This document shows positions 3,176 to 59,686 of a DNA stretch of 64,000 nt, in pieces. The DNA is taken from UHGV virus genome UHGV-0028991; one strand, given 5' to 3'. The position numbers were made by a program, and so were the translations under genes. The DNA comes from a virus. Within the stretch, counting starts at the first letter, position 1. Every line of letters begins with the position of its first letter. Below the pieces are notes generated by a model. That model ran no database searches and had not been told where the DNA came from. It worked only from the letters and a program-made list of their open reading frames with translations.

Positions 3176-3247
3176 CTAAGTCCTCCCATTTATTTGTTGC
3201 CTGCATTATATCACATATCAAACAATTTGTCAACCCCTATTTTGGAA

Positions 3248-3886: not shown

Positions 3887-3905
3887 ACCGCATTTACCCC
3901 TTTAT

Positions 3906-4340
3906 TTAGTTAAACGGTCTAAAGACCACAATCATAGACGGAAACGGCGCAGAATTCTTACTGTCTCCAAATTTAAGGCGACCTTTGATGAATCGAATTT
4001 CAACATTTGGTTTCTTGTAGATATAGTCATGAAACCACTTGGTATCAGTCCGTGCGGGTAAGAGCATTACAACCGTTGCATCAGCGGATGCGTGCCACGC
4101 TCTGTTTACCCAATTGCCTATCTCCCTACCATAAGGCGGATTACACCATATCGCACCATCGGCAATCCATGGCATTAGCAGCCCGTCTTGCTCTTTGGTG
4201 TAATACTTGTCACACTTGTGGTTGCTTTCGTTTGCACACACATCAAGTTCAAAGCGGAACTCTTTGTCTAATTCGTCAAACAAGTTCTGTGGCGTTGCCC
4301 ATTCATCTGTGGCAGAGGAAAACATTACTTCGGTTTTCAT
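3906..4340 (-). CDS. phage-type N6-adenine DNA methyltransferase (small Dam-like family)
   Basis: 144 aa. EWATPQNLFDEL and CNPPYGREIGNWVNRAW (motif IV NPPY) are typical of the compact phage N-6-adenine methyltransferase family. Confidence 0.65.
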   Translation of the reverse strand: MKTEVMFSSATDEWATPQNLFDELDKEFRFELDVCANESNHKCDKYYTKEQDGLLMPWIADGAIWCNPPYGREIGNWVNRAWHASADATVVMLLPARTDTKWFHDYIYKKPNVEIRFIKGRLKFGDSKNSAPFPSMIVVFRPFN

Positions 4341-4345
4341 GTGTT

Positions 4346-4957
4346 TCAGGCAAAAGGATTAGAATCGGAATCGTCAAACGGATTTGCTTCAGGAGCAGGC
4401 GTTGCTGTCTGAGCAGGAGAATCAGAGAACGGGTCTACGAAATTCTCTTCTTTCTTTGCATTTACAACCTTGCTCGGATCAAGTGTTTTAAGAGCAGGGA
4501 TGGTAAAGTCGCCTTTGCGAATAGAATCAACGGAACGAACGGATTCTACATATGTGCGGGTACGAAGCTTTCCCACACTATTGACAAACTCTTCTTCGCC
4601 CAACACTAATCCAACGATTTTCCCCTTTAATGACTTTTCGTCAAAATTCCACACATATCCAGAATTTGACTTTTCGACGGCAACCGTAAAGCCTTTAAGC
4701 ATCGGCAACGCCTTTTCTTTGTACGAGCGAATAAATGTGCCTGCGTTGGGCCATTTTTTGTCTTCTCTTGTATCGTTTTTGTATTCACTTGCAAAAAAAC
4801 CCTTATTGTCCCCTTCGCACACATCAAATGAAATTCTTAAATATTCCTTCTCTGGAACATCTGTAGCATCAAGCAACTTGACAATATAACCACCAGGTGC
4901 AAGCTTCTTAAACATGCCGCTTTCTTGAATTTTGTCGTACCCGCTAATTTTCTTCAT
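4346..4957 (-). CDS. hypothetical protein, DUF669-like; possible ssDNA-binding protein with acidic C-terminal tail
   Basis: 203 aa. Sits beside the AAA_24-like ATPase, as in many phage replication modules. C-terminus ...NPFDDSDSNPFA resembles an SSB acidic tail. Confidence 0.35.
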   Translation of the reverse strand: MKKISGYDKIQESGMFKKLAPGGYIVKLLDATDVPEKEYLRISFDVCEGDNKGFFASEYKNDTREDKKWPNAGTFIRSYKEKALPMLKGFTVAVEKSNSGYVWNFDEKSLKGKIVGLVLGEEEFVNSVGKLRTRTYVESVRSVDSIRKGDFTIPALKTLDPSKVVNAKKEENFVDPFSDSPAQTATPAPEANPFDDSDSNPFA

Positions 4958-5658
4958 AATACTTTACCTTTCTTTCTTTTTGTTTTACATGGCACTGAGA
5001 AAATTTCCTCAGGAGTCCATCCATTTTTAACCCTCGCTCGTATAGTTTCTTCTGCTATTCCTGTTCGTTTTGAGCACTCTGCAACGGACCATTTTCTTCC
5101 CATATATTGAATCCAAACATTAGAACTTCTGTTACAACATTGTTCTTGATGTGTCACCCATCTACAATTATCGTGACAATAATTTCCGTCGTTGTCTATG
5201 CGGTCAAGCTCAAGTCCTTCTTTATATCCATTCGCAATTGCCCAATCGCGAAATGGTTTATAATCCCTCCATTCAGAGGCAACGCCTATTCCTCTCCCGC
5301 CATATCTCCCATAGTCATGGTCGTGTGGGTTATTACACCTTTTTATCATTGCGCACCAGACATTATATAATTTGCTTTTTGATTCACCGTGCGTTTTATG
5401 GCATCTTTCCTTCTTTATGCATCCGCAGGATAATGTATTTCCGAATCGCAAACCAGTTCCATCTACGATAAACACCCGTGGATTGCCACATGCGCACATA
5501 CATTTCCATCGTACTTTTTTACTGTTTGTTTTTGCAGCTTCACAAATCACGATTATCCTACTGTCTGTAACTCCGTGCTCCCACATTTTCCATCCTGTCA
5601 TATCAATAAAGTTCGATGGATGACATCCCTTTTTCATATCTACATTCTCCTTACTCAA
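4954..5658 (-). CDS. HNH homing-type endonuclease
   Basis: 234 aa, Cys-rich. GRYGGRGIGV...LELDRIDNDGNYCHDNCRWVTHQEQ is an HNH_3-type signature. Confidence 0.6.
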   Translation of the reverse strand: MSKENVDMKKGCHPSNFIDMTGWKMWEHGVTDSRIIVICEAAKTNSKKVRWKCMCACGNPRVFIVDGTGLRFGNTLSCGCIKKERCHKTHGESKSKLYNVWCAMIKRCNNPHDHDYGRYGGRGIGVASEWRDYKPFRDWAIANGYKEGLELDRIDNDGNYCHDNCRWVTHQEQCCNRSSNVWIQYMGRKWSVAECSKRTGIAEETIRARVKNGWTPEEIFSVPCKTKRKKGKVL

Positions 5659-5779
5659 GAAAATTGTTTAGAGTGGGCAAGGCGGAGTAAGCACCTTGCC
5701 CCAAATAGAACAAGTTTGCAACCTCATTCTAACCTCTATTTATATTATATCACGAAAGCATCGAATTGTCAAGCGTTTA

Positions 5780-6412
5780 TTAAAAATCCTTCAGAGCATC
5801 AATTACAAGAGTAATGTCATTAGGAATTTCGTCGGTGTCAAATGCGCCCCGAGGCGTTTTTGCCGTACTGTTCTTTGCCCGTGTTTCAAATACATACTCG
5901 CCATTCTCGTTGATTCGGGATAGTAGCACAGTAGTCATCTTGCTTTCCAAGCAAATCTTGTTTAACTTGCGCCCATTAGTTAGCATACAAGTAAAACCGT
6001 CCTCGCTTGTTTGAGTATGCCCTACAAGAATGACCGTTAAATCATCGCGCATTTTGTTCGCATAGTCTACAATGCCATACACGCTCTGTGCAAGGTCCAT
6101 CCACTTGTCGTATGTCTTTTCTTTGGCTCTTCGCATTTCGTCCGCAACCATGCACCCATTGAGTGTGTCAATGACAAGGAATTTAATTTGTTTTTGCTTC
6201 TCATCAATTTGTTGCATCAAAGAAAAAATTTGCTCGGGCGCATCACATCGAAAATAATTCTTATTCTCCTTGTTGTACTGCGTTCGCCACCCTTTCCAAC
6301 TCAACCCCTTACCATCAGCGTCGATATAGAACGTTTGCTTAGGGTCAAGTTTTTCAAGACTGGTTGTTTTTCCAGAACCGCTTGCGCCAAGAATCATAAT
6401 TGCCCTACTCAT
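5780..6412 (-). CDS. AAA-family ATPase (phage AAA_24-like, recombination/replication associated)
   Basis: 210 aa. Walker A ILGASGSGKTT; Walker B-like FLVIDTLN. Confidence 0.6.
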   Translation of the reverse strand: MSRAIMILGASGSGKTTSLEKLDPKQTFYIDADGKGLSWKGWRTQYNKENKNYFRCDAPEQIFSLMQQIDEKQKQIKFLVIDTLNGCMVADEMRRAKEKTYDKWMDLAQSVYGIVDYANKMRDDLTVILVGHTQTSEDGFTCMLTNGRKLNKICLESKMTTVLLSRINENGEYVFETRAKNSTAKTPRGAFDTDEIPNDITLVIDALKDF

Positions 6413-21660: not shown

Positions 21661-21730
21661 ATGTGGACTATGCATCTGTTCACAAATCACGCTATCTGCA
21701 AACTTCTTAATATCGCATAGTCTATCCGAG

Positions 21731-21816
21731 TGAACACTGAAAGACTCGAACTTTCATCCTCCCGTCAGCCTCGTCGCTGAATTTCTATCGGCGCTCTCCC
21801 TTTGAGCTAAGCGTTC
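21731..21816 (-). tRNA. tRNA-like element (86 nt) with canonical acceptor, D- and T-arms but an irregular, long central region; possible type-II tRNA or tRNA pseudogene
   Basis: Minus strand: acceptor GAACGCT/AGTGTTC (7 bp including one G-U pair). D-arm GCTC-AAAGGGA-GAGC. T-arm GAAAG-TTCGAGT-CTTTC with a consensus T-loop. 37 nt lie between the D- and T-arms. No clean 5 bp + 7 nt anticodon arm was found; the best candidate is GCCGA/TAGAAAT/TCAGC with one C-A mismatch. No encoded CCA. Confidence 0.35.
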
Positions 21817-22395: not shown

Positions 22396-22469
22396 TGGTA
22401 CTGTAAGATAGTGTCGAACTATCGTCTATCGGTTATAAGCCGATTGCTCTTCCGTTGAGCTATTACAGC
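22396..22469 (-). tRNA. tRNA with anticodon UAU (reads AUA; tRNA-Ile-like), CCA encoded
   Basis: Minus strand GCTGTAA-TA-GCTC-AACGGAA-GAGC-A-ATCGG-CTTATAA-CCGAT-AGAC-GATAG-TTCGACA-CTATC-TTACAGT-A-CCA. All four stems pair; the first acceptor pair is G-U. Anticodon loop CTTATAA gives anticodon TAT. Confidence 0.6.
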
Positions 22470-37511: not shown

Positions 37512-38402
37512 GTGCCGACAGCAAAAAAGAAAGCTCCGACCAAAAGCATTAGGACGGATAGCAGGAATGTGCGGCTGTGCATTGCCTGTGGGTCAAGAAA
37601 GCCAATAAGCGATTTTTACTCAACGACATCCGTTCCCAACATGCAATTTTTTGTGTGCCGCAGGTGTGGCAAAAGATTACTTAAAGACCACACAGATAAG
37701 GTAGAAAAGCCGATGGCAGCACTGTGGCTTGTTTTGGCGCAAATGGGCGTACCGTTCATTTTAGAGGCGTGGTACGCCGCTTCGGAAATGTATGAAAACG
37801 ACAAAACGGGTGATTTAATTACATTCTACTTGATTTCGCTTGCTAACTTAAATCGCGTATATGAGGGCTTTTGGCAATCAGATGCCATGTTGTCCGACAT
37901 GATAAAGACGGGCGTTGGTGGCGAAGTTAAGGATATTGACCGCCATCTCGCAGACGCAAACAAGTATAGAGCGCGTTGGGGCGATTATACAGCCGATGAT
38001 TGGGATTGGCTTGAAAGAGAATATTTAGACTATACGCGCGACCTCGAAGCCATATCTGTTTCGGCGGAAAAGGCATATAGGTCTTTATGCAAATGCAATT
38101 TGCGCTTTAAGAAAGAAAGCGAGGCAGGCGAAGAAACAAAATCTACAACTGATGAAATCCTGAAATGGATGAAATTGTTGCGCATAGATGATTTCAGAGA
38201 CAATACAAAATCGGACGAAGATAGATACATAGACCACTTGGCATGGAAATTTGAGAATACTGAGCCTGCTGAATTGACGGATGAGGAGCGGTATAAGGAT
38301 GTTAAGGGCTATGAGAAAATATATAATGATTGGATGCGGTCAATGCAGAATATGATTGCGGGGACGAAGAGCTACCCCAATATTCCTAAGGAGCAGTTGT
38401 AA
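37512..38402 (+). CDS. putative terminase small subunit / DNA-packaging accessory protein
   Basis: 296 aa. Lies directly upstream of the terminase large subunit; N-terminal zinc ribbon CIACGSR...CRRCGK. Confidence 0.35.
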   Translation: MPTAKKKAPTKSIRTDSRNVRLCIACGSRKPISDFYSTTSVPNMQFFVCRRCGKRLLKDHTDKVEKPMAALWLVLAQMGVPFILEAWYAASEMYENDKTGDLITFYLISLANLNRVYEGFWQSDAMLSDMIKTGVGGEVKDIDRHLADANKYRARWGDYTADDWDWLEREYLDYTRDLEAISVSAEKAYRSLCKCNLRFKKESEAGEETKSTTDEILKWMKLLRIDDFRDNTKSDEDRYIDHLAWKFENTEPAELTDEERYKDVKGYEKIYNDWMRSMQNMIAGTKSYPNIPKEQL

Positions 38403-39286
38403 TGCCGACCGCAAGAGAAAACGAACAATTCCGCAAGTCCGAAAATGTCAAAAAGTGGATAACTTATTATCGCAGGAATTGGGACTTATTTGCTGAAGAA
38501 GTTCTTGGCATTAAGCTATATCCTGTGCAGAAGCTGAAATTGCACATGATAGGTGTTGCCGACGAATATTGGGACTTTTCGTCTCGTTCAACGGCGAAGT
38601 CTTTTATTGTTGGTGTTGCCGCATTTTGTGCAATGAGTTTATATCCGCATTCAGAAATTGTTGTTACATCATCTTCTATCCCGCAGTCTGCAAGACTTGT
38701 AAGAGATAAGATGATAAAAGAAATCATTAAGAAATATTCGCCATATTTGAAGTATTTGTATGAGAAGGGCTATTTGACAGTTAAAATGCTTGATGAGGGC
38801 GTTTTCGTCTTAACGAACACATTAAATGAATCAACGACAACGGTCGCTGTGTGTTCTGAAAATGCTCGTGGTATGCGTTCCACATTTACGATATATGAAG
38901 AGACGCGATTGCTGAAGAAGTCAATTCTCGACTCTGTATTTGAGCCGATGGGGCACGAGCGTCCTGCGCCGTTTACACTTGACCCTAAGTATAAAACAGA
39001 CAGGTGGATAAAGGCGGCAAAATCTTGCTATATTTCATCTACTCGGTATGAGTGGGAATGGTTTATCAGAGAATACAGAAAATGCGTTGAGGGCTATTAT
39101 ACATCAAAGCACGAGAAGTACATTCCTATGGCAGAGGACATTTATACTGCAATTCAAGAAGGAAGCCGAACATGGGCGGACTATCGAAAGGCAAAGAAGA
39201 AAATGTCCAAAGCGGATTTGAAAAGGTTCGCATTAAACATATTGAATTGCTGGAATACCCTTAGAGTTTTATCAGCTACAACATAA
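38402..39286 (+). CDS. terL: terminase large subunit, N-terminal ATPase segment
   Basis: 294 aa. LYPVQKLKL, SSRSTAKSFIVGVAAF (deviant Walker A, compare T4 gp17 SRQLGKT) and ARGMRSTFTIYEETRLL (Walker B region, compare T4 gp17 ARGNSFAMIYIDE). Confidence 0.6.
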   Translation: MPTARENEQFRKSENVKKWITYYRRNWDLFAEEVLGIKLYPVQKLKLHMIGVADEYWDFSSRSTAKSFIVGVAAFCAMSLYPHSEIVVTSSSIPQSARLVRDKMIKEIIKKYSPYLKYLYEKGYLTVKMLDEGVFVLTNTLNESTTTVAVCSENARGMRSTFTIYEETRLLKKSILDSVFEPMGHERPAPFTLDPKYKTDRWIKAAKSCYISSTRYEWEWFIREYRKCVEGYYTSKHEKYIPMAEDIYTAIQEGSRTWADYRKAKKKMSKADLKRFALNILNCWNTLRVLSATT

Positions 39287-39613
39287 GCATGAAATAAGGC
39301 TAAGTGTGATATGCGAGAAAATGATAGAAATTGGGCAATCAGCAGCGAAGCCTCGAATAGAGGAACGTTCAACGACTATCCCGCAAGGGAGTACACAACA
39401 AGCGATTGGTTGTGGAAGTGGTATGCCTTTGCACAAAAGCAAAGTGAAGATATAGTCTTATCTGCGCGGAAACGCGCAGTCTTTCAAAAAAATGAGAGAA
39501 ACGAGGAGTAGCGACCTATGCTTAAAAGAGTAAATGGGGGACAGCAAGTTGCAAATTGTTTTTGTTTGTCTGCAAACAAACAAATTACCCCATTTGTTCT
39601 TGAATAATAATCT

Positions 39614-40474
39614 TTGTTGCAGGAAGGATTTTATAGCATGAATATTTTTGAGGTTAATGATAAAAATAAATTCTCTTTTAGTTGTATTTATTTATGGCAA
39701 AATCTAATAAATGGGAAGGTTTATGTTGGGCAGACGGTGGATTTTTATGCCCGCATGAAACAATATTTACGCGAAGACACAAGTAGGCGTATCTGCATGG
39801 CTATTAAAAAGTATGGATTTGATAACTTTAGTGTTGAAGTGTTGGAAAGAGACGTGTCGCACCAAAATTTAACACAACGCGAGCAGTATTGGATAGATTT
39901 TTATGATAGTGCCAACGAAGACGTCGGATACAACATATGTCCGGTAGCGGAAAGCACAAGAGGATATCACCACAGAGAAGAAGACAAGAAGAGAATGAGC
40001 GAAATAGCCAAAAAACGTTTCAAAGAACACCCAGAACAAATAAAACGCGGGAAAGAGAATCACATGTTCGGCAAAAAACATTCCGAAGAGACAAAAAAGA
40101 AAATAAGCCAAAGTATAATGGGCAACCAAAATGTAAAAGGCAAAACATGGAAGCTTTCGGAAGAAATATGTCGTCGTAGGTCGGAGAGGATGAAAGGTAA
40201 GAGGAATGGAGTGGGGCACAAATGTCCAGAAAGCGTAAAAGAGCATCTTAGAAGATATAATAAAAATCGAATCTGGACAGAGGAGATGCGAGAGCAATCG
40301 CGGATTGCACATCTTAACATTGGCGGGAAGAAACTGATGTGTGTCGAAACGGGAGTCACTTATGAATCCGTGGCTGAAGCGGGTCGTGCCTTGAACAAGG
40401 ACCCGTCCTCAATTTCTAAGTGTTGTCGCGGGCAACAACGAATCGCATATGGATTTCACTGGCAATATATATAA
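39614..40474 (+). CDS. GIY-YIG homing endonuclease with NUMOD3 repeats
   Basis: 286 aa. FSCIYLWQNLINGKVYVGQTVDFYARMKQY (GIY-YIG). HMFGKKHSEETKKKISQS (NUMOD3-like). It lies between the two terminase halves. Confidence 0.65.
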   Translation: MLQEGFYSMNIFEVNDKNKFSFSCIYLWQNLINGKVYVGQTVDFYARMKQYLREDTSRRICMAIKKYGFDNFSVEVLERDVSHQNLTQREQYWIDFYDSANEDVGYNICPVAESTRGYHHREEDKKRMSEIAKKRFKEHPEQIKRGKENHMFGKKHSEETKKKISQSIMGNQNVKGKTWKLSEEICRRRSERMKGKRNGVGHKCPESVKEHLRRYNKNRIWTEEMREQSRIAHLNIGGKKLMCVETGVTYESVAEAGRALNKDPSSISKCCRGQQRIAYGFHWQYI

Positions 40475-40502
40475 TTAACCTCAAAAAAAATAGTTTAAAA
40501 AA

Positions 40503-41483
40503 ATGTTTTCAATGGAGATGGAAAATGAAACACAGGGTAGTCCCGAAGGTGCATTCTTTAGCCTAAAGAATTTTAAGGACAATCAAGAAATTCCAGAGGC
40601 ATATGTTCCGCCTACCGATACACAAGTGTTGGCGAACACAAAGCCGCCGTTCAGAGAAAAACAAGCGGACGAAATACGGCTTGTCGGCGTTGACTACGCA
40701 TTTGCGAACACAACATTTAAGACGGGATACGGCAACGATAATACAATTATTGAGTGCTGGTCGGCTGTCTGGAAAAACGGTCGGTTCATTCGTAGTCTTG
40801 AATATATGGAACAATGGCCCGCATCGGACAGTACAGGCGCACAATGGCGCGTTCGTGAGCTGTTTTGGGACTATAATGCGGACTTCATTGTAAACGACCT
40901 TAGAGCAGGCGGAGAAACACTATATAACCTTATGACCGAAAAAAGGACGCATCCAAGGCGCGGCTATATGTGGGATTCACGAGGATTGACAGTCGCTCAG
41001 AATTTTAACTATCACCTCGTAACAGAATCAAAGCTTGCCGACTTGCGTATGCGGACGGTCGATAAGGATGCTGTTCCGTGTATTATTCCTGCTCAGGGCT
41101 CGGCACAAAAGAATGGTGTTTGGTGGCTTGCACTTAGAAAGCATCTTGAATGCAATGACATAAAGATGCTTATATCTATGGCAGACAAGCAGCAAGAGCT
41201 TGAAGATTCGGGCGAGTATTTCAAATTGACCTCAGAAGAATTGGCAGATAAGCTTGCCCCTTATGGCGAGACAGACCTGCTTATTCAGGAGGCAATCAAA
41301 CTTAACACAGAAATAAAGGGCGATAACTTATATCTTAAAGAAGACAACAAGGCGACTAAAGACCGTGTTGTTGTTATGTCTTATGTCAACATTGTAATTG
41401 ATAAAATCGAAATGGAATGGAATAAACGCCTGACCAATGACGATGAAGATTATGATATTGACGATTTACAACTTGTATATTAA
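40503..41483 (+). CDS. terL: terminase large subunit, C-terminal nuclease segment
   Basis: 326 aa. IRLVGVDYAFANTTFKTGYGNDNTIIECW matches the start of the terminase RNaseH-like nuclease domain (GxDxA...D.T). Confidence 0.55.
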   Translation: MFSMEMENETQGSPEGAFFSLKNFKDNQEIPEAYVPPTDTQVLANTKPPFREKQADEIRLVGVDYAFANTTFKTGYGNDNTIIECWSAVWKNGRFIRSLEYMEQWPASDSTGAQWRVRELFWDYNADFIVNDLRAGGETLYNLMTEKRTHPRRGYMWDSRGLTVAQNFNYHLVTESKLADLRMRTVDKDAVPCIIPAQGSAQKNGVWWLALRKHLECNDIKMLISMADKQQELEDSGEYFKLTSEELADKLAPYGETDLLIQEAIKLNTEIKGDNLYLKEDNKATKDRVVVMSYVNIVIDKIEMEWNKRLTNDDEDYDIDDLQLVY

Positions 41484-41504
41484 CGGACAGAAAGGAGGTG
41501 CGGT

Positions 41505-43073
41505 GTGAACGGAAAAGAAAGGCTTGAAAGAGAAGAGCTTGAGGACATTATAAAGTTTTCTGAGGGGCTTGCCTTTATGGATTCTAATTACTATTCGCCA
41601 TTTTTATCAAATGAGCTTTTGCAGAATTTGAACACAATTAAGGGCGTGCCGTCTTATGATGCCATTCAAAAGGCATTGGTTGATTTTAATTCGTGTCCTG
41701 AAAATCTGCAAATGTATAATGAGTTCGCGGCTCAATTCAACATGATATTCAGGCGCACCCTGTATTCTTATGTAAATTCTTTGGCGCTTGATCTGTCTTA
41801 TGTGTGTACAAATGCATATACAAAGGCGGACTATGAAAGCGCTGAATATGTAAAAGATAAAGCGCGGGTCGAGGACTTTCTTCTTAACTTTGATTACAAG
41901 AAAGAATTCCATAATGTCTTGATGAATGTCATGCGGCGCGAAACATATTTTACATGGTTTCGCAAATCAAAGCCTGGTAATGGCAACAAGAAAATGCGGT
42001 ATGCATTGCAGATGATGCCACAAGACAGATGTATGATTACGGGCTATTGGGAAAAGGGTTTGCTTTACTCAATGGACATGACATACTTCATGCAGCCGGG
42101 CGTTGATATTGGTGAATTTGACCCCGCTATACGCAAGATGTATGAGCGGGTTATGGAATCTCCAGGCATTGATTATAAACCGTCTGCGCCATTAAATAAG
42201 CGAACTGGCACATATGCATTGTGGGCAGATGCGTCACCTGTTCTCGGAGCCTATGCTTTCAAAATGGACCCATCAACATTTTCGCCCGTGCCGTTCTTGG
42301 CATCTTTTGTTAAGAATATTATTCGGGACGAAGAAGTTGAGCGCTTGCAATACAATAAAGACCTGATTTCGGCATATGCAATTCTTGTCGGAACAATTCG
42401 GCTTTATGATGGTGCAAAATCCGGTGAACAAAAAGACCAGTTTGCAATTAACCTTAAACTGCTTGGGCAGCTTATGGCAAAGGCAAAGGCGGGATTCGGT
42501 TCTCTTGTTAAATTGGGGGCAATGCCTACCGAAGACAATAAACTGTTCCAGTTTGAGGATAAAAACGGCAACATGTATAAAGACCAAGTTGCGACCACTG
42601 CTGCAAGTGGCACTGGCATTAGCCGCGTCATTTATTCTACTGATAGAGTAAGCGCGGCGGAGCTTGAGGCTCAGCAGAACGAAGTTTATCAAACCATGCG
42701 CCCGATGTATGCGCAGTTTAATAACTTTATGGATTTCTTTGTTAATCAAATGACAAAGAAGTATAAGTTCAAGTTTACATTTGACGGCGCGACATATAGA
42801 TATGATCGCACTCAAAGATTTGACCAAATTAACAAATTGGCAGACAGGGGCATTGTTTTGCCGCCATCTGCTTGGGCATCTGTTTTAGGGCAGAACCCCG
42901 CATTGTTTGAGGCGGCTTTGAGAGAGAGCAAGAACACTGGATGGCTTGAGCAATATAGCCAACTTATGGTAAACATCAATACAACTTCGCAGGAATCAGA
43001 AGGTGGCAGACCGCGCGAAGAAGGAGCGGTAGATGCTGCGACCGAGGCAAGCCGCGAATTGTATGCCGATTAA
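41505..43073 (+). CDS. portal protein (putative)
   Basis: 522 aa. Position immediately after the terminase and size typical of portals; acidic C-terminus. Confidence 0.45.
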   Translation: MNGKERLEREELEDIIKFSEGLAFMDSNYYSPFLSNELLQNLNTIKGVPSYDAIQKALVDFNSCPENLQMYNEFAAQFNMIFRRTLYSYVNSLALDLSYVCTNAYTKADYESAEYVKDKARVEDFLLNFDYKKEFHNVLMNVMRRETYFTWFRKSKPGNGNKKMRYALQMMPQDRCMITGYWEKGLLYSMDMTYFMQPGVDIGEFDPAIRKMYERVMESPGIDYKPSAPLNKRTGTYALWADASPVLGAYAFKMDPSTFSPVPFLASFVKNIIRDEEVERLQYNKDLISAYAILVGTIRLYDGAKSGEQKDQFAINLKLLGQLMAKAKAGFGSLVKLGAMPTEDNKLFQFEDKNGNMYKDQVATTAASGTGISRVIYSTDRVSAAELEAQQNEVYQTMRPMYAQFNNFMDFFVNQMTKKYKFKFTFDGATYRYDRTQRFDQINKLADRGIVLPPSAWASVLGQNPALFEAALRESKNTGWLEQYSQLMVNINTTSQESEGGRPREEGAVDAATEASRELYAD

Positions 43074-54678: not shown

Positions 54679-55107
54679 ATGGCGAATAAAAACACGAGCT
54701 GGAATATTGGCGTAGGTATTGAGATAAAGACAAGCACAAGCGAAATTCAAAAGAAATTGAATGAAGCGGCGAAAAATGTCAATATCAATATCAAGGCAAA
54801 AGGGGCTAAGGAAGCATCTGACGGAATAAGCAATCTGTCAAAGAACATGAACGAAGCCTCGTCCAGCGCGAAGAATTTTGAATTAACATATCAAGCGGCA
54901 AACATGATTATGGAGAAGAGCATAGAAATTATTAGGTCTATGGTCTCTGAAGTCTATACTATGAATGCCGCGCAGGTCGAATTAGCAAAGGTCACAGATT
55001 TGTCCGGCGAATCAATGGACGAATATGTGAGCAAGTTGACCGACATGGGAGCAGAAGTTGCTAAGACGGGTAAACTATGGACGGGAGCCCGTGTGATGGG
55101 ATGGTAA
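54679..55107 (+). CDS. tail tape measure protein, coding segment 1
   Basis: 142 aa. Typical N-terminal region of a tape measure protein (...ELAKVTDLSGESMDEYVSKLTDMGAEVAKTG); ends at a stop. Confidence 0.45.
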   Translation: MANKNTSWNIGVGIEIKTSTSEIQKKLNEAAKNVNINIKAKGAKEASDGISNLSKNMNEASSSAKNFELTYQAANMIMEKSIEIIRSMVSEVYTMNAAQVELAKVTDLSGESMDEYVSKLTDMGAEVAKTGKLWTGARVMGW

Positions 55108-55398
55108 ACCAGCACAGAGAATTGTTCAAAACCCAGTAAAACCTAAAGCCTGTTTAACTACAACATGGGGATGAAATAAGCCCAAGTGTGAATGTGGGAA
55201 ACTGTTAAAAATAAGCAGGATGGCATATGGTCGAAAGACCTAAGTGCAATTTATCCCGAATATTATACATTATTTGGGACAAACAATGGTAGATTGGGCG
55301 CGAAGTCCCGAACAGGGATGTGTCAAGAGACTCTATAAGTTCGACCCCTCCAAATTAAACAGGGTGAAGAAATAGTCCAGAATATTTTGAAAAAGGTA

Positions 55399-55427
55399 TT
55401 GACAATCTAAAAGTTATGTGTTATAAT
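55399..55427 (+). promoter_or_regulatory. consensus sigma70 promoter inside the first tape-measure intervening sequence
   Basis: TTGACA, 17 nt spacer, TATAAT, with a TG extended -10. Followed by an AAAGGTGG ribosome-binding site and ATG 55445. Confidence 0.6.
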
Positions 55428-55444
55428 GGCATCAACAAAGAAAG

Positions 55445-55690
55445 GTGGGCTTGATTATGTTGTTAATTGCAGTTCCTTTGATGATGCTTTATTGCGTCTG
55501 TTATGGCATTGCTTGTTTCTTCAGGCATGTTGTTTTGGGCATCCCTTTTGATAAGGACGTTGCCAAGAAAAACAATCCCGAGCAATATAAAAAATGGGAA
55601 GAAGAAGATAGGCAGGCTGCAGAGCAGTACAGAAAAGAAGAAAAAGAGCATAACGATTGGGGATTTATTGATTACTCCAAGAAAGATTGA
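55445..55690 (+). CDS. small membrane protein with highly charged C-terminus (holin-like or moron)
   Basis: 81 aa. MGLIMLLIAVPLMMLYCVCYGIACFF spans one or two TM segments; the C-terminal K/E-rich tail follows. It is driven by the promoter above. Confidence 0.45.
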   Translation: MGLIMLLIAVPLMMLYCVCYGIACFFRHVVLGIPFDKDVAKKNNPEQYKKWEEEDRQAAEQYRKEEKEHNDWGFIDYSKKD

Positions 55691-55703
55691 ATAAAAGTCC
55701 CAG

Positions 55704-55910
55704 ATGGTGGAAAGCGCTGCCCAATTTGCGAAAGCTGGATTTAATGAAACCGATGCTGCGCAATTAGCGAAAGTTTCCTCCATGTACCAAAACATTGCCG
55801 ATGAGCAACTTTCGGCGGGCGAAGCATCTGAGTTTATTATTTCTCAGATGAAAGCATTTAATATTACTGCTGAGGAAAGCTTACATATTGCTGATGCGGT
55901 TTACTTTTAA
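55704..55910 (+). CDS. tail tape measure protein, coding segment 2
   Basis: AAQFAKAGFNETDAAQLAKVSSMYQNIADEQLSAGEASEFIISQMKAFNITAEESLHIADAV matches the start of the TP901-type tape-measure core. Confidence 0.45.
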   Translation: MVESAAQFAKAGFNETDAAQLAKVSSMYQNIADEQLSAGEASEFIISQMKAFNITAEESLHIADAVYF

Positions 55911-56277
55911 TTGGCCGCTACGAGGTGAATTGTCGGGGACGAGGGTTCAGCGCCCTATCTGCGCAATTTTATGCGTGGATGCCTAAAGATTTGAACACCA
56001 ACCTATCATGGTGACATAGATGGGGGCTTAGAGTAATTAACTAAGGCATGGTAAAAGGTTCAAATATATATGGTCAATCCGCAACTAAGCGTCTGCATTG
56101 CAGATGAAAGCTCACAGACTATCCCATAGGTCTTAACAGACAATAGGAGTACGGCCCAAGCCAAGGGTGGGTGAGAACCCCTTAAATGGAAGCGCCTCGC
56201 TTTGGTATTTTACCAAGGAAGATATAGTCGGGTCTTATAAGAAATTTATAAGCGTTTGAATATTCAAACGGTCGTAG

Positions 56278-56424
56278 TTGGCGGCTACGGCAAACTTATA
56301 TCGCAATAACGTATCAAATAATATGTCTGTTTCTTCAGCAGATTTAGCTCGAAACCTCGGAAATATGTCCGCCGCAATGTCTGTCGGCGGGAACACGATG
56401 GAAGAGAGCATTGGCTTAGGTTAA
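56278..56424 (+). CDS. tail tape measure protein, coding segment 3
   Basis: Open frame ...NVSNNMSVSSADLARNLGNMSAAMSVGGNTMEESIGLG continues the tape-measure core motif; flanked by stops. Confidence 0.4.
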   Translation: MAATANLYRNNVSNNMSVSSADLARNLGNMSAAMSVGGNTMEESIGLG

Positions 56425-56695
56425 TAGGTCAATTAAAAACCTATAAATTGACGGGAAGTTCCTTAGAGCTCTATATACTAAACCGTATTAGTAATAATGC
56501 GGCGGAGCAAGTAATGACTGCTGTATAGTAACAAATATAGAGATTGGATAATCCGCAGCAAGTTATCAATAGGTCATTGATAACTGTTCAACGACCAGTA
56601 AGCCCTACTAATTCAGTAGGCATACTCGCAAGCGCGGGGAAACATAGGTGAAAAAGATATGGTCTAATCTCTGTCGAAAGGCAGAGGGCTAATAA

Positions 56696-59686
56696 AGCCG
56701 TTTAGAGAGTAGCGTCTCTAAGCAAATAAATTATGTATTAACTGGCATTACCGAGATTACTCGTTCAGCGGCATCCGCATCTCGTGCATTAGTCACAATC
56801 CAAAGCAGATTTAATCAGATTGTAGATGAATCTTCAAGCACTGGTCAGAATCTGTTAAAATGGTACACAAAGCACGGAATTGCAGTTAAGGATGATGCTG
56901 GGCAGTTAAGGTCGCTGTATGATGTTATGTCCGACCTTGCGCCTAAGTGGAACTCACTTACCAAGAATGAGCAATCTTATTTCATGCAACAGGCGGCGGG
57001 TGCCCGGCAATCTCAAAATCTCGCCGCATTGCTTTCTAACTTTAAGGGCGTTCAAGAAGCAACTGCCCTTGCATATGATTCTTCAGGTTCGGCAGCAGCA
57101 GAAAATGCAAAAGTCCTTGAATCTCTTGATGCAAAAACAACCGCATTAAAAGCAACATGGCAAGATTTTGCAAACAAAACCATTGACAGCGAATTAGTTA
57201 AGTCTTTGCTTAACTTGGCTAATGGCGCGTTAAAAGTATTGAACACCGAAGCAGGCAGAACTTTAACACAATTTGTTTTGCTGAGCGGCGTTTTCACTGG
57301 GCTCGGCGGAATTATTGCGCAGGTCATTCCGGTCGCAATAAAATCGATAAAAGCATTTACATCTGTTTTGGCTGGCGCGACAACTGGCGTAAAAGCATTG
57401 CAGGCGTCTGTGCCTGTCATTGGCATTGCAATGGCGGCGCTAACGGTTATGATAGGGCTTGTTAAAGATGCTTATGATGCGCAGTATGGCACAATCAACA
57501 AGATAAACAAGTCCATAGAAACAATTAACGCCACCTATACCGATGCCACAAATGTTGCTAAGGCAAATGCCGAACAGGCAAAATATTTGGTTGGGGTAAT
57601 TTCAGACCTTAACAAGGTTGAGAATATGTCTACGAGTGAGGCGTATAAGTACAAAAGCGCTGTAGACCAACTTAATAAAATTTACCCCGACTTGAATCTC
57701 AGCATTGGCGAACACACTGGCAAAATCCAAGAAGATACTGGTGCAATTTATAAACGCATCGAAGCGATGAAGCAAGAGGCGCTTCAAGCGGCGTTGCAAG
57801 AAAAGCAAGCGGCTTATTATGGGCAAATAATAGAGTCAAAAGCATCTCGCGAATCTGCAGGCGATGAACTACGCGCTGAGATACAAGAGCTCCAAGAAAA
57901 GCTAAAACAACTCAGAGACGCGTTCGGATTCGATATAACGGGACTCGGAGAAAACCTTGATGTCGATGTCTCTTTAATGGATACGGATAGTCTGATTCGC
58001 TTTTACGAGAATTTCCTTCGATATGGAACATTCCCGAGCTATATGTCAAAAGAGATTAGCGCTACCATTGAAGAAATAAGGCAGTATGACGAGGCGATTG
58101 AAAACGCGGAAGGAAAATTAGAAGGAGCTAATGATGCGGCTCAATCGCTCGGGGAAACTGTTGTAAACCTTAACACCCAAGCAGGCAAAAATGCAGGAGC
58201 AACAAAAACTCAGCGAGATAATGTTGACAATCTCGTAAAAGCACAAAATGCATTAAACAAGGCAATTCAGGACTACAATGCTTATGGCGGTTTGCAATCT
58301 GAAACGCAAGAAGCATTAGACGAAGCGTTGCCTGGTCTAAACGAACTGCTTTATGACGAAACAGGCGCGTTGACGTCTGCTGGTAAAGCCGCGTTGCGCG
58401 GAAGCAAGGAATTGGCGCAATTCGTTCTGTTGCAAAAACAAGAGGAATTACAGGCTCAGAAAACGGCATTGTCGCACGCCGAAGCCGCAAAAGCAGAGGC
58501 GCTAAGATTCAGGACAAGGCAGAGTTTAATGGGGCAAACACAGCTTTTGTCAATAGCTGAAGAAGCCGAAGCTGAAGCAGCCCGACAGGATGCATTAGCA
58601 ACCGCTGCAGAACAGAACATAAAAAATATCGAAGATGAGATTGCGTGGCTGGAACAACTGCTCGCAACATACAGCTCTGGTTCGAGTGCCGCATCTTCCG
58701 CCGCCGACGCTTACAAAAAAGCATTTACAGACTGGCTTGCATATAAAGACCATCAACTTGCAATGGACGAAATCACAGAAGAGCAGTATTATGCTGAGCT
58801 TACTGAAATGGTCGATAAATTCTTTAAGGGCAGAGCTGAATATCAAGAAGAATATTGGCAATACTCTGAAAAGATTTATGCGTATGAAAAGAAGCGCATG
58901 CAAGAGCTGGTCGAAGAATCGACTAAGGCGGTCGAGGACGCAGTTGATAAAATCAACGAAAAGTACGATTCTGAGTTGTCGCGGCTTGAAGAAGTCAACG
59001 ATGCCCTGTCCGACCAAATTGAATACGAGAAACTGCTCGATGAAATGGCTAAGGCAAGGGAGCAGAAAAAGCTTGTATACAAAGACGGTCGATTCCAGTA
59101 TGTGCAAGATGTGGATGCAATATCTGCCGCGCAGGCTAAGCTTGATGAATATAATCGCAACAAGGGCTTAGAAGCAAGTAAAGCTGATATTGAAGCCCGC
59201 AGAAAAGCAGAGGTCAGACAGACCATTCTCGACAAGATGCAGGCTAATAGCGCAGCATGGGCAACATCAAGTAGTCCCGCTGAGCGTGAGGCATTGCATA
59301 ATGCAAATGTTGAGCTGGCGAAACTGCTTGAAGATAATTCGACCTATGATGCCGCAACGGGCAAATGGTCAAGCTATGCGGGCGGCACACTTGGTGCGGC
59401 TGGCGGAATGAGCCTTGTCGGAGAGAATGGTCCCGAAATGCGTATTCTTAATCGCGGCGACGGCATACTCACAAGTGGCGTTACTAAGAATTTGTTCGCA
59501 TGGGGCAGCACGTCTCCGAGCGATTTTGTATCTGCACTCAAGGGCTTAATGGGCTTTAAGCTTGGCAATTCCAGCAACACTACTGTGAATGTCAGCAACC
59601 TTGAATTGCCCAATGTAACAAATGCAAGAGAGTTTGTAACCGGGCTGAAAAATCTTGCACTTCAATATGCTTACGAGAGGGGATAA
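56696..59686 (+). CDS. tail tape measure protein, main coding segment 4
   Basis: The frame is open from 56696 (...LTGITEITRSAASASRALVTIQSRFNQIV...DDAGQLRSLYDVMSDLAPKW) with no in-frame start before M at 56927. Long coiled-coil body; C-terminal GGTLGAAGG. Confidence 0.55.
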   Translation, partial: SRLESSVSKQINYVLTGITEITRSAASASRALVTIQSRFNQIVDESSSTGQNLLKWYTKHGIAVKDDAGQLRSLYDVMSDLAPKWNSLTKNEQSYFMQQAAGARQSQNLAALLSNFKGVQEATALAYDSSGSAAAENAKVLESLDAKTTALKATWQDFANKTIDSELVKSLLNLANGALKVLNTEAGRTLTQFVLLSGVFTGLGGIIAQVIPVAIKSIKAFTSVLAGATTGVKALQASVPVIGIAMAALTVMIGLVKDAYDAQYGTINKINKSIETINATYTDATNVAKANAEQAKYLVGVISDLNKVENMSTSEAYKYKSAVDQLNKIYPDLNLSIGEHTGKIQEDTGAIYKRIEAMKQEALQAALQEKQAAYYGQIIESKASRESAGDELRAEIQELQEKLKQLRDAFGFDITGLGENLDVDVSLMDTDSLIRFYENFLRYGTFPSYMSKEISATIEEIRQYDEAIENAEGKLEGANDAAQSLGETVVNLNTQAGKNAGATKTQRDNVDNLVKAQNALNKAIQDYNAYGGLQSETQEALDEALPGLNELLYDETGALTSAGKAALRGSKELAQFVLLQKQEELQAQKTALSHAEAAKAEALRFRTRQSLMGQTQLLSIAEEAEAEAARQDALATAAEQNIKNIEDEIAWLEQLLATYSSGSSAASSAADAYKKAFTDWLAYKDHQLAMDEITEEQYYAELTEMVDKFFKGRAEYQEEYWQYSEKIYAYEKKRMQELVEESTKAVEDAVDKINEKYDSELSRLEEVNDALSDQIEYEKLLDEMAKAREQKKLVYKDGRFQYVQDVDAISAAQAKLDEYNRNKGLEASKADIEARRKAEVRQTILDKMQANSAAWATSSSPAEREALHNANVELAKLLEDNSTYDAATGKWSSYAGGTLGAAGGMSLVGENGPEMRILNRGDGILTSGVTKNLFAWGSTSPSDFVSALKGLMGFKLGNSSNTTVNVSNLELPNVTNAREFVTGLKNLALQYAYERG

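What the first reader, a model, noticed from the sequence alone, without database searches (positions are those of the whole stretch)
38402..41483. Terminase large subunit split into ATPase and nuclease halves by a 1.2 kb insert carrying a GIY-YIG homing endonuclease
ORF 38402..39286 has the terminase ATPase signatures (deviant Walker A SRSTAKS, Walker B ARGMRSTFTIYEE). ORF 40503..41483 starts the RNaseH-like nuclease domain (LVGVDYA...DNTII). Between them lie 327 nt of non-coding sequence with a perfect 8 bp hairpin (TTTGTTTG-tctg-CAAACAAA) and a GIY-YIG/NUMOD3 endonuclease gene. This is the arrangement expected for a group I intron with an intron-encoded homing endonuclease, or for a free-standing endonuclease that has split terL into two genes. 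Either way the packaging motor is produced in an unusual way.
Basis: partly seen in the sequence, partly recalled or inferred. Interest (0 to 1): 0.6.

Follow-up and report, generated by a model that had tools for sequence, protein, structure and literature searches.

The report
Group I intron in phage terminase gene
The phage's DNA-packaging motor gene (terL) is interrupted by a 1288-base group I intron that very probably splices itself out of the RNA and that carries its own homing endonuclease gene, a well-known kind of selfish element in phage terminase genes, so the motor protein is almost certainly made whole.

Summary
Window 39218..40505 (1288 nt) is a group I intron. It scores 77 bits against Rfam RF00028 (gathering score 50, E=5e-19). 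All core helices P1 and P3-P9 are present, together with the P7 pseudoknot, IA-type P7.1/P7.2, a U.G pair at the 5' splice site, a terminal omega-G and a 7-bp P10. Removing it joins 38402..39217 to 40506..41483 into a 597-aa ORF. This ORF aligns without gaps to uninterrupted genes of close relatives (88.8-96% nt identity) and to 16 more distant ones. Its predicted fold matches solved large terminases (T4 gp17, Sf6, D6E, HK97). A 95%-identical copy in another phage contig shows compensatory changes in P9 and P9.1 and an intact endonuclease ORF. Close relatives lack the intron, and the same intron lineage sits at two other terL sites in related phages. The split-gene alternative is rejected. terL introns with homing endonucleases are already documented (LL-H, Moonbeam, Bastillevirinae), so this is a new member of a known kind. 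Splicing itself was not tested.

The parts
38402..39217 (+). terL exon 1 (codons 1-272, ATPase domain; Walker A-like SRSTAKS res 61-67, Walker B TFTIYEE res 161-167)
   Evidence: It ends at a codon boundary (...MSKAD). It is colinear with uninterrupted homologs. K66, E167 are invariant and E166 is nearly invariant in the 41-sequence family alignment.
39218..40505 (+). Group I intron (1288 nt), IA-type, containing a homing endonuclease gene
   Evidence: Rfam RF00028, 77 bits (GA 50), E 5e-19 over 39210-39479. Deleting exactly this span gives a 1794-nt ORF that aligns without gaps to the intron-less genes in L001, L003 and L004.
39212..39231 (+). P1 hairpin: exon GCGGAU (39212-17) pairs with the internal guide GUUCGC (39226-31). 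U39217.G39226 marks the 5' splice site. 39218-39224 (UUGAAAA) is the P10 part of the guide.
   Evidence: 6/6 and 7/7 pairs. P10 duplex energy is -4.4 kcal/mol with this allele's exon 2, against -2.0 with intron-less exons.
39238..39479 (+). Ribozyme core. P3 39238-44/39419-25; P4 39248-53/39339-44; P5 39258-60/39333-35; P5a 39267-73/39323-29; P6 39345-46/39367-68; P6a 39351-54/39360-63; P7 39374-79/39452-57; P7.1 39379-82/39387-90; P7.2 39395-99/39409-13; P8 39427-32/39439-44; P9 39462-68/39473-79 (GAAA loop). There is no P2.
   Evidence: every helix is fully paired. Compensatory differences against the CB457P2 intron occur in P3, P7.2, P8 and P9; two double-compensatory pairs in P9 against L006.
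39480..39601 (+). Peripheral 3' extension: P9a hairpin (39480-85/39494-99) and a long P9.1-like stem (14 bp, 39526-39/39588-601).
   Evidence: MFE fold, z = -4.4, 0 of 200 shuffles as stable; 14/14 and 9/9 pairs, and CB457P2 has an equivalent 13-bp stem of different sequence. U39567-A39578 becomes C-G in L006.
39604..39637 (+). Translation-initiation region of the endonuclease gene (SD AGGAAGG 39621-27). It is predicted to be partly sequestered in a hairpin.
   Evidence: prediction only.
39638..40474 (+). I-TevI-like GIY-YIG homing endonuclease gene (278 aa): GIY-YIG domain, NUMOD3, C-terminal NUMOD1/I-HmuI-like DNA-binding region
   Evidence: It aligns to the I-TevI catalytic domain (1LN0/1MK0) with the equivalents of Y6, Y17, R27, E75 and N90 conserved. 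The ORF is intact in L006, with 27 synonymous and 16 non-synonymous codon differences.
40475..40505 (+). Intron 3' tail ending in omega-G (G40505). The final AUG was mistaken for the start codon of the second terL ORF.
   Evidence: G40505 is the only boundary placement compatible with a terminal G.
40506..41483 (+). terL exon 2 (codons 273-597: FSMEMENE... linker, then the RNase H-like nuclease domain with invariant D335, D403, D558)

Best explanation
terL is a single gene interrupted by a mobile IA-type group I intron (39218..40505).

How it most likely works. The gene is transcribed as one pre-mRNA. The intron RNA folds into the ribozyme: P1 holds the 5' splice site at U39217.G39226, and the core consists of P3-P9 with the P7 guanosine-binding pseudoknot and P7.1/P7.2. 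An external guanosine attacks after U39217. The 3' splice site lies 1 kb downstream, after omega-G40505, and is brought into place by the 7-bp P10 pairing between the guide sequence UUGAAAA and exon 2 UUUUCAA. The exons are then ligated to ...GCGGAU|UUUUCAAUGG..., which encodes an ordinary 597-aa large terminase (...MSKAD|FSMEMENE...).

The intron also encodes an I-TevI-like GIY-YIG endonuclease, looped out 3' of P9/P9.1. During mixed infection this enzyme would cut intron-less terL alleles near the insertion site, and repair from the intron-containing copy would spread the intron (homing).

What is shown and what is inferred. Shown here: the ribozyme signature and helices, the precise insertion, the TerL fold of the spliced product, conserved endonuclease catalytic residues, selection on both the RNA helices and the endonuclease ORF, presence/absence polymorphism among close relatives, and the same intron lineage at other terL sites. 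Inferred: actual self-splicing, endonuclease activity and its target, and homing.
For: (1) Rfam RF00028 full-length hit, 77 bits against a gathering score of 50, E 5e-19 and 8e-18 over the whole window.

(2) Every canonical helix is fully paired, including the P7 pseudoknot GACUAU/AUAGUC that the Rfam model does not encode, plus the U.G pair at the 5' splice site, omega-G and a 7-bp P10.

(3) Exons 38402..39217 + 40506..41483 total 1794 nt. That is the same length as, and aligns without gaps to, the uninterrupted genes in L001 (88.8% nt), L003 (96.3%) and L004 (89.1%). Sixteen uninterrupted homologs at 47-97% aa identity run through the junction without a gap, with a nearly invariant D|F.

(4) The spliced protein models at pLDDT 85 with a continuous helix across the junction. 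Its top 38 PDB fold matches are all large terminases, covering both the ATPase and nuclease domains.

(5) Covariation. Against the 79%-identical Enterocloster phage intron, P3, P7.2, P8, P9 and P9.1 differ by compensatory pairs. Against the 95%-identical L006 copy, P9 has two double-compensatory pairs and the P9.1 tip has one, and the other substitutions at paired positions keep or restore pairing; a 1-nt deletion in the P9.1 stem leaves a single bulge.

(6) The endonuclease passes the Pfam GIY-YIG and NUMOD3 cut-offs, hits phrog_314 at 7e-41, has the I-TevI catalytic residues conserved, and is intact with a synonymous excess in L006.

(7) Mobility signature. Intron-plus alleles (window, L006) and intron-minus alleles (L003, L004, L001) coexist at 89-96% nt identity. 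An ORF-less group I intron occupies the identical D|F site in L048/L049. Introns 80-87% identical in the core sit at terL sites 222 and 403 in other relatives and in the Enterocloster CB phages.

(8) There is no SD sequence before the second 'ORF'.
Against: No RNA or protein data exist, so splicing is inferred. The intron lacks P2, which its relatives CB457P2 and L048 have. The 3' splice site lies about 1 kb from the core, and I could not identify a P9.0 or other pairing beyond P10 that brings it in. One guide nucleotide (G39225) is left unpaired between P10 and P1. Subgroup assignment (IA2-like) rests on P7.1/P7.2 and on similarity to phage introns, not on subgroup-specific models. The endonuclease's target and activity are untested.
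Confidence: 0.9

Rival explanations
1. Split gene. A free-standing GIY-YIG endonuclease gene inserted into terL, and the phage now makes the ATPase part (294 aa) and the nuclease part (326 aa) as two separate polypeptides that assemble into the motor.
For: Both halves are open reading frames with start and stop codons. The intron's last three bases happen to be an in-frame AUG directly abutting the first conserved exon-2 residue.
Against: A complete ribozyme lies between the halves. There is no Shine-Dalgarno sequence before ATG 40503, whereas terL, the endonuclease gene and the portal gene all have one. The 22-residue tail of ORF1 has no counterpart in any homolog. The RNA helices are maintained by compensatory change, which would be pointless if the RNA did not fold and splice.
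Confidence: 0.03
2. Decayed intron. The element descends from a group I intron but no longer splices efficiently (P2 lost, remote 3' splice site), so this genome is a defective or poorly packaging phage, or needs a host or phage factor to splice.
For: P2 is absent here and in L006 but present in related introns. No tertiary or P9.0 contact for the distant 3' splice site was identified. The window comes from an uncultured source, so viability is unknown.
Against: The same P2-less intron is kept in two diverged genomes (about 95% identical), with only structure-preserving substitutions at paired positions and three double-compensatory pairs. All catalytic-core helices, P10 and omega-G are intact. 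The surrounding packaging and head genes are intact.
Confidence: 0.05
3. The intron splices but is no longer mobile. The endonuclease is inactive, or has been retargeted or domesticated (for example as a repressor or maturase), and the presence/absence pattern reflects ancient gain or loss rather than ongoing homing.
For: The nearest intron-less allele (L003) differs from the intron-plus alleles in a tight cluster at -9..-7 and +4..+9 around the insertion site and is identical elsewhere within +/-75 nt. This could mean that surviving intron-less alleles are cleavage-resistant variants. Amino-acid changes between the window and L006 enzymes are confined to the N-terminal, catalytic-domain half.
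Against: The catalytic residues are conserved. The ORF is intact in both copies with a synonymous excess. The lineage has reached several sites and genomes, which argues for recent mobility.
Confidence: 0.15

Closest known systems
Group I introns with embedded homing endonuclease genes in phage terminase large-subunit genes: Lactobacillus phage LL-H, Bacillus phage Moonbeam (two introns), Bastillevirinae such as SIOphi (PMC4299906; PMC11878797)
   Same: The same host gene (terL), the same element type (IA-like group I ribozyme plus a looped-out HEG), and the same logic of targeting a conserved motif in an essential late gene. Multiple insertion sites per gene family are also reported there (5/52 terL genes, some with 2-3 introns).
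   Different: A different phage clade: uncultured relatives of Enterocloster bolteae phages, 41% aa identity, with SPbeta-like terminases at about 25%. The endonuclease here is GIY-YIG/I-TevI-like, whereas the terL introns tabulated for Bastillevirinae carry VSR-type or 'HNH'-cluster nucleases. The insertion site (D272|F273) has not been compared with theirs.
Phage T4 td / nrdD(sunY) introns and I-TevI/I-TevII (the classic IA2 phage introns)
   Same: IA-type core with P7.1/P7.2. The GIY-YIG enzyme has I-TevI's catalytic residues and a modular NUMOD DNA-binding tail. From my own knowledge of the T4 literature, the sunY intron likewise carries its ORF in the 3' peripheral region, so that the 3' splice site lies far from the core. 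A CNNNG motif (CAAAG) lies 22-26 nt upstream of the insertion site in all alleles, near where I-TevI cuts its target. This is a weak lead from memory, not a test.
   Different: The host gene is different (a nucleotide-metabolism gene in T4, terL here). There is no P2 here. Only about 25 bits of similarity to the I-TevI catalytic domain (E 1e-4). The cleavage site is untested.
Introns in terL of Enterocloster bolteae phages CB457P1/P2 and CB473P1-3 (GenBank OP172753-57; the endonuclease is annotated 'ITEVIR intron-associated endonuclease 1', the terL pieces only as hypothetical proteins)
   Same: The closest sequence relatives of this intron: about 79% nt identity over the core and the start of the HEG, Rfam 95.9 bits. 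The architecture is the same (core, P9, long P9.1 stem, I-TevI-like HEG, short 3' tail) and the gene family is the same.
   Different: It is inserted at a different terL position, after ...IVLD, equivalent to residue 403 in the nuclease domain. It has a P2. Those phages carry a further ~270-nt insert just before Walker B. I found no paper describing these introns.

Membership tests
Group I self-splicing intron (Rfam RF00028) | Covariance-model score at or above the curated gathering score, full-length match | tested here: met
   77 bits against 50, model positions 1-253, E 5e-19. Reproduced on the whole window.
Group I self-splicing intron (Rfam RF00028) | P1 formed by the 5' exon end and an internal guide sequence, with a U.G wobble at the 5' splice site | tested here: met
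   GCGGAU (39212-17) x GUUCGC (39226-31), with U39217.G39226.
Group I self-splicing intron (Rfam RF00028) | Conserved core P3-P8 including the P3/P7 pseudoknot (G-binding helix P7) | tested here: met
   P3, P4, P5, P6, P7 (GACUAU/AUAGUC) and P8 are all fully paired.
Group I self-splicing intron (Rfam RF00028) | Terminal omega-G and P10 pairing of the guide with the 3' exon | tested here: met
   G40505 precedes exon 2. UUGAAAA (39218-24) x UUUUCAA (40506-12), 7/7 pairs.
Group I self-splicing intron (Rfam RF00028) | Removal restores an uninterrupted host gene colinear with intron-less homologs | tested here: met
   A 1794-nt ORF that aligns without gaps to L001/L003/L004. Seventeen uninterrupted homologs are colinear through the junction.
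Group I self-splicing intron (Rfam RF00028) | Helices supported by compensatory substitutions | tested here: met
   Against CB457P2: P3, P7.2, P8, P9, P9.1. Against L006: three double-compensatory pairs, and the remaining helix substitutions preserve pairing. This is a small sample of hand-built comparisons, not a statistical covariation test.
Group I self-splicing intron (Rfam RF00028) | GTP-dependent self-splicing of the RNA | not testable with these tools
   Needs in-vitro transcription and splicing, or RT-PCR.
Subgroup IA2 (phage-type group I introns) | P7.1 and P7.2 between P7 and P3', plus subgroup-specific model assignment | tested here: inconclusive
   P7.1 (UCCC-GCAA-GGGA) and P7.2 (ACAAC/GUUGU) are present. 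No subgroup-specific covariance models were available. P2 is absent.
GIY-YIG homing endonuclease, I-TevI-like | GIY-YIG catalytic domain above the Pfam cut-off, with catalytic Tyr, Tyr, Arg, Glu, Asn | tested here: met
   PF01541, 42.9 bits against 22.6. The alignment to I-TevI 1LN0/1MK0 conserves the equivalents of Y6, Y17, R27, E75 and N90.
GIY-YIG homing endonuclease, I-TevI-like | Modular C-terminal DNA-binding region (NUMOD repeats / HTH) | tested here: met
   NUMOD3, 35.1 bits against 20.4. NUMOD1 and I-HmuI_NUMOD-like fall below their cut-offs. The C-terminus matches PDB 8b6e at E 2e-4.
GIY-YIG homing endonuclease, I-TevI-like | Cleaves the intron-less allele and promotes intron homing | not testable with these tools
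   Indirect evidence only: intron-plus and intron-minus alleles at 89-96% nt identity, and the lineage present at several sites.
Large terminase subunit (TerL) | Two-domain fold: ASCE ATPase plus RNase H-like nuclease | tested here: met
   AF2 pLDDT 85. The Foldseek top 38 PDB hits are all large terminases: T4 gp17 at 2e-14, Sf6 gp2 with TM 0.59, and separate ATPase-domain and nuclease-domain entries.
Large terminase subunit (TerL) | Sequence-profile membership (Pfam terminase families) | tested here: not met
   No Pfam hit for either half or for the spliced protein. Only 2 of 41 family members reach TerL_ATPase and 1 of 41 reaches Terminase_6C. The PDB profile search was negative. This is a divergent TerL clade recognisable by fold, by gene order (portal immediately downstream) and by annotated relatives (PMBT24 'terminase large subunit', SPbeta-like 'terminase').
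Large terminase subunit (TerL) | Conserved Walker A Lys, Walker B acidic pair, nuclease acidic residues | tested here: met
   K66, E167, D335, D403, D558 invariant and E166 nearly invariant in 41 sequences. Assigning them to catalytic roles is by analogy.
Free-standing HEG / split gene | No ribozyme, and independent translation signals for the downstream half | tested here: not met
   A ribozyme is present. There is no SD sequence before 40503.
Intein | In-frame insertion translated with the host protein | tested here: not met
   A stop codon occurs at 39284-86 in the exon-1 frame, and the endonuclease is in its own ORF with its own SD.

The most novel reading that the evidence does not exclude
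A single IA-type intron lineage is actively changing sites within the late-gene module of this clade of uncultured Clostridia-type phages. Cores 80-87% identical sit at three different terL codons (222, 272, 403) in different relatives. In some the HEG is 3' of P9.1, in some it is inside the core, and in some there is none. One genome (L006) carries pieces 100% identical to its own terL intron inside an insert in its portal gene, paired there with a different, VSR-like nuclease. The window's tape-measure gene carries up to three further group I-like inserts. If real, and not an assembly artefact, this would be a natural system for seeing how group I introns reach new sites (reverse splicing, or ribozyme/HEG reshuffling) on short evolutionary timescales.
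Probability: 0.3. Interest if true: 0.5.

Novelty: new member of a known kind. Interest (0 to 1): 0.3.

Why it matters
The practical value is for annotation. In this phage and its relatives, including the deposited Enterocloster phages CB457/CB473, terL is called as two or three 'hypothetical proteins'. Recognising the intron restores a single 597-aa terminase, the key marker gene for phage classification and packaging-strategy prediction.

Biologically it adds a gut-phage clade to the list of phages whose terminase genes are colonised by mobile group I introns. It also supplies matched intron-plus and intron-minus alleles, plus same-lineage introns at other sites, which could be used to study homing-site choice by an I-TevI-like enzyme. 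It does not reveal a new mechanism.

Tried and rejected
- Sequence-based TerL assignment failed. Pfam found nothing on either half or on the spliced product, and a 41-sequence profile against the PDB found only a spurious ORC6 match. I switched to structure prediction and Foldseek, which was decisive.
- A three-way MAFFT of the two junctions against the intron-less gene was uninformative. I replaced it with an ungapped comparison of the spliced exons.
- The sandbox did not receive locus L002, so I pasted its sequence instead.
- My first by-eye helix coordinates were off by 1-2 nt for P5, P6, P7, P7.1, P9 and P9a and were corrected by string anchoring.
- Rfam gave no group I call, even at E<=0.01, on the other terL-family inserts. 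BLAST then showed that L044, L046 and L054 are nevertheless homologous to this intron. For L044 and L054 the likely reason is that their ORF splits the core. L046 has no ORF, and its miss is unexplained.
- I considered a slid splice boundary. The intron starts UU and exon 2 starts UUUU, so three placements give the same mRNA. Only 39218..40505 ends in G, so I rejected the others.
- I considered the intein and split-gene readings and rejected both (see the membership tests).
- I looked for a P9.0 or other long-range pairing between the 31-nt 3' tail and the region after P9. I found only a 4-bp GAGG/CCUC possibility, which is not convincing.

Full report
**1. The observation**

The three ORFs exist exactly as reported: 38402..39286 (294 aa), 39614..40474 (286 aa from TTG) and 40503..41483 (326 aa). 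The motif strings and the 8-bp hairpin at 39561-39580 are in the sequence. The middle ORF passes the Pfam cut-offs for GIY-YIG (42.9 bits against 22.6) and NUMOD3 (35.1 against 20.4), and hits PHROG 314 'homing endonuclease' at 7e-41. A portal gene (phrog_2739, 6.5e-29) follows at 41505..43073. Neither flanking ORF hits any terminase family in Pfam, and both hit only function-unknown PHROGs. The 'terL' label was therefore unproven at this stage.

**2. Is there an intron?**

A sensitive Rfam scan of 38000-42000 gives a full-length match to RF00028 (group I catalytic intron) at 39210..39479. It scores 77 bits against a gathering score of 50, with E 5e-19, and it is reproduced over the whole window. 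The hit begins inside ORF1, so the 5' splice site must lie upstream of ORF1's stop codon.

Reading the P1 hairpin, the exon bases GCGGAU (39212-17) pair with GUUCGC (39226-31). The last pair is U39217.G39226, the hallmark of a group I 5' splice site, and it falls exactly after codon 272 (...MSKAD). At the other end, G40505 (the G of ORF3's 'ATG') can serve as omega-G. Exon 2 then starts UUUUCAA, which pairs over 7 bp with the guide segment UUGAAAA (39218-24) to form P10.

**3. Test of the predicted junction**

The predicted spliced product (597 aa) was searched against the large protein collection. The best hit, P0001, is 597 aa, 97% identical and covers 100% of the query, and there are about 200 further relatives of roughly 612-627 aa. 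In an alignment with 16 of them (47-97% identity) the junction ...MS.aD|F.ME..NE... is gap-free, and D|F is nearly invariant.

At DNA level, exon 1 plus exon 2 is 1794 nt. That is the same length as the uninterrupted genes on contigs L001, L003 and L004, and it aligns to them without gaps at 88.8%, 96.3% and 89.1% identity. The insert is therefore exactly 1288 nt, 39218..40505. Three slid placements give the same mRNA, because the intron starts UU and exon 2 starts UUUU, but only this one ends in G.

It follows that ORF1's last 22 codons are intron read-through and are absent from every homolog, and that ORF3's ATG belongs to the intron. No Shine-Dalgarno sequence precedes that ATG.

**4. Is the host gene TerL?**

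Sequence methods failed. Only 2 of 41 family members reach Pfam TerL_ATPase and 1 of 41 reaches Terminase_6C, and a family profile found no terminase in the PDB.

An AlphaFold2 model of the spliced protein, built from the 41-sequence alignment, has mean pLDDT 85 and a continuous helix (residues 270-277) across the junction. Its top 38 Foldseek matches in the PDB are all large terminases: T4 gp17 at 2e-14, D6E, Sf6 gp2 with TM 0.59, HK97, T7, the P74-26 ATPase domain, and the Sf6, RB49 and G20c nuclease domains.

The family alignment keeps K66 (Walker A-like S-R-x-x-A-K-S), E166/E167 (Walker B IYEE; E167 invariant, E166 nearly so), and D335, D403 and D558 invariant. The nearest annotated relatives are Enterocloster bolteae phages at 41% aa identity, where PMBT24 is annotated 'terminase large subunit'. 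More distant ones are SPbeta-like Bacillus phages and Clostridioides phages at about 25%, annotated 'terminase'. TerL is thus established by fold, by conserved motifs, by gene order and by annotated relatives.

**5. Anatomy of the intron**

- P1: 39212-17 with 39226-31.
- P2: absent. The Rfam alignment deletes it, while relatives have one.
- P3: 39238-44 with 39419-25.
- P4: 39248-53 with 39339-44.
- P5, P5a, P5b: an extended arm.
- P6 and P6a.
- P7: 39374-79 with 39452-57 (GACUAU/AUAGUC), the pseudoknot helix.
- P7.1: UCCC-GCAA-GGGA.
- P7.2: ACAAC/GUUGU. P7.1 and P7.2 are the signature of subgroup IA.
- P8: 39427-32 with 39439-44.
- P9: 39462-68 with 39473-79, GAAA loop.

All of these are fully paired. 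Downstream come a P9a hairpin and a 14-bp P9.1-like stem (39526-39 with 39588-601). The whole 3' region folds with z = -4.4, and none of 200 shuffles folds as well.

The endonuclease gene follows. Its SD, AGGAAGG, lies at 39621-27 and is predicted to be partly buried in a hairpin. The CDS runs from ATG 39638 to TAA 40474. Only 31 nt then remain before omega-G. The ORF is therefore looped out of the 3' periphery. From my own knowledge of the literature, the T4 sunY/nrdD intron is arranged in the same way.

**6. Evidence that the RNA and the enzyme are under selection**

The closest database relatives of the intron are in Enterocloster phages CB457P1/P2 and CB473P1-3. They share about 79% nt identity over the core and the start of the HEG and score 95.9 bits in Rfam. 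Compared with that copy, P3 (3 pairs), P7.2 (2 pairs), P8, P9 (4 pairs) and P9.1 differ by compensatory pairs.

A second phage contig, L006, carries the same intron at the same site. The intron is about 95% identical (66 differences), within a region that is contiguous with the window and 96.3% identical overall. Among the 66 differences:
- P9 has two double-compensatory pairs (G-C to A-U, and C-G to U-A).
- The P9.1 tip has one (U-A to C-G).
- All other substitutions at paired positions keep or restore pairing, and a 1-nt deletion in the P9.1 stem leaves a single bulge.
- The endonuclease ORF is intact, with 27 synonymous and 16 non-synonymous codon differences.

The enzyme aligns to the I-TevI catalytic domain (1LN0/1MK0) with the equivalents of Y6, Y17, R27, E75 and N90 conserved.

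**7. Evidence for mobility**

- Intron-plus alleles (window, L006) and intron-minus alleles (L003, L004, L001) coexist among phages whose terL is 89-96% identical.
- Against the closest intron-less allele (L003), the +/-75 nt around the site are identical except for a cluster at -9..-7 (AAA against GTC) and +4..+9 (TCAATG against CGCGCA). The downstream cluster lies in the P10 partner. P10 is predicted at -4.4 kcal/mol with the intron-plus exon and -2.0 with intron-less exons. The intron-plus alleles carry Ser274 where the family consensus is Arg. This pattern fits exon/guide co-adaptation or co-conversion, or resistance of the surviving intron-less alleles. The data cannot separate these.
- L048 and L049, whose TerL matches are 42-50% identical to this one, have a 249-nt ORF-less group I intron (Rfam 68-71 bits) at the identical D|F codon boundary.
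- The inserts at terL site 222 (L054) and site 403 (L044, L046, and the Enterocloster CB phages) are 80-87% identical to nt 17-206 of this intron. One lineage therefore occupies at least three terL sites.

**8. Comparison with what is known**

Group I introns with embedded homing endonucleases in phage terminase genes are documented:
- Phage LL-H, and phage Moonbeam with two introns (PMC4299906).
- 5 of 52 terL genes in Bastillevirinae, some with two or three introns, mostly IA2/IA3-like and with loop-encoded nucleases (PMC11878797).
- The review PMC3984707 names terminases among the typical targets, and GIY-YIG enzymes as typical of phage introns.

I found no paper describing the introns of the Enterocloster phages, and no close relative of this phage among 50,697 deposited phage genomes. 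The finding is therefore a new member of a known kind.

**9. Verdict**

The intron interpretation is supported with confidence about 0.9, the remaining uncertainty being the lack of RNA or protein data. The split-gene alternative is rejected. Interest is modest (0.3). The value lies mainly in correct annotation, and in a possibly useful natural series of same-lineage introns at several sites.

Noticed in passing
window 54679..59686 (inserts about 55108-55703, 55911-56277, 56425-56926): The tape-measure gene appears to be broken into four pieces (ORFs 54679..55107, 55704..55910, 56278..56424, 56927..59686) by three ORF-less inserts. Each insert overlaps a group I intron hit: 56365-56686 at 51.5 bits (above the gathering score), 55848-56251 at 34.6 bits, and 55242-55399 at 22.5 bits. 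Short segments resemble the terL intron. The splice sites were not mapped.
   Followed up: partly
L006 5771-6916 (equivalent to window 42239/42261, inside the portal gene): A close relative has a 1146-nt insert in its portal gene, with a 284-aa ORF that looks like a VSR/PD-(D/E)xK nuclease. The 5' part of the insert is made of two abutted pieces 100% identical to that genome's own terL intron, but it lacks P4', P6 and the 5' strand of P7 (Rfam only 33 bits). It is either a degenerate intron in an essential gene or an assembly chimera across the repeated core. The window's own portal gene is intact.
   Followed up: partly
L007 342-622; L042 2433-4000; L043 2798-4000; L051 2767-4000; L002 (CB457P2) about 2935-3215: terL relatives also carry inserts at residues ~65, ~159 (just before Walker B) and ~183. 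Rfam does not call these as group I introns even at E<=0.01. The viral-contig inserts (L007, L042, L043, L051) show no similarity to this intron; the CB457P2 insert was not included in that comparison. Two of them (L007, CB457P2) are only ~270-280 nt with no ORF. Their nature is unknown.
   Followed up: partly
L002 (Enterocloster phage CB457P2, OP172754) 2380-5822: In the deposited Enterocloster CB457/CB473 phage genomes terL is annotated as three separate 'hypothetical proteins' around an 'intron-associated endonuclease 1', and the gene is not recognised as terminase. A canonical U...omega-G splice there would give ...IVLD|NGGE..., two residues shorter than the family consensus, so the exact 3' splice site is unresolved.
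   Followed up: partly
window 39638..40474 compared with L006: All 43 differing codons between the two copies of the endonuclease lie in the N-terminal ~155 residues. The C-terminal DNA-binding half is identical even at synonymous sites. This suggests recombination or a recent sweep of that half.
   Followed up: no
window 21730..21816 (-) and 22396..22469 (-): There are two phage-encoded tRNA genes: tRNA-Phe(GAA), unusually long at 87 nt and not reported by Rfam at the gathering threshold, and tRNA-Ile(TAT).
   Followed up: no
window 37512..38402 (+): The ORF immediately upstream of terL overlaps it by one base (TAATG). It has an N-terminal Cys-rich, zinc-ribbon-like segment, hits phrog_3314 at 1.6e-27, and its L001 ortholog carries a weak YonG_N (SPbeta) Pfam hit. 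It may be the small terminase subunit of this SPbeta-like packaging module.
   Followed up: no
window 39192..39196 (CAAAG, 22-26 nt upstream of the insertion site): A CNNNG motif sits at about the distance where I-TevI cuts its own target, and it is conserved in all five intron-plus and intron-minus alleles. The comparison with I-TevI is from memory and the motif is short, so this is only a lead for mapping the cleavage site.
   Followed up: no
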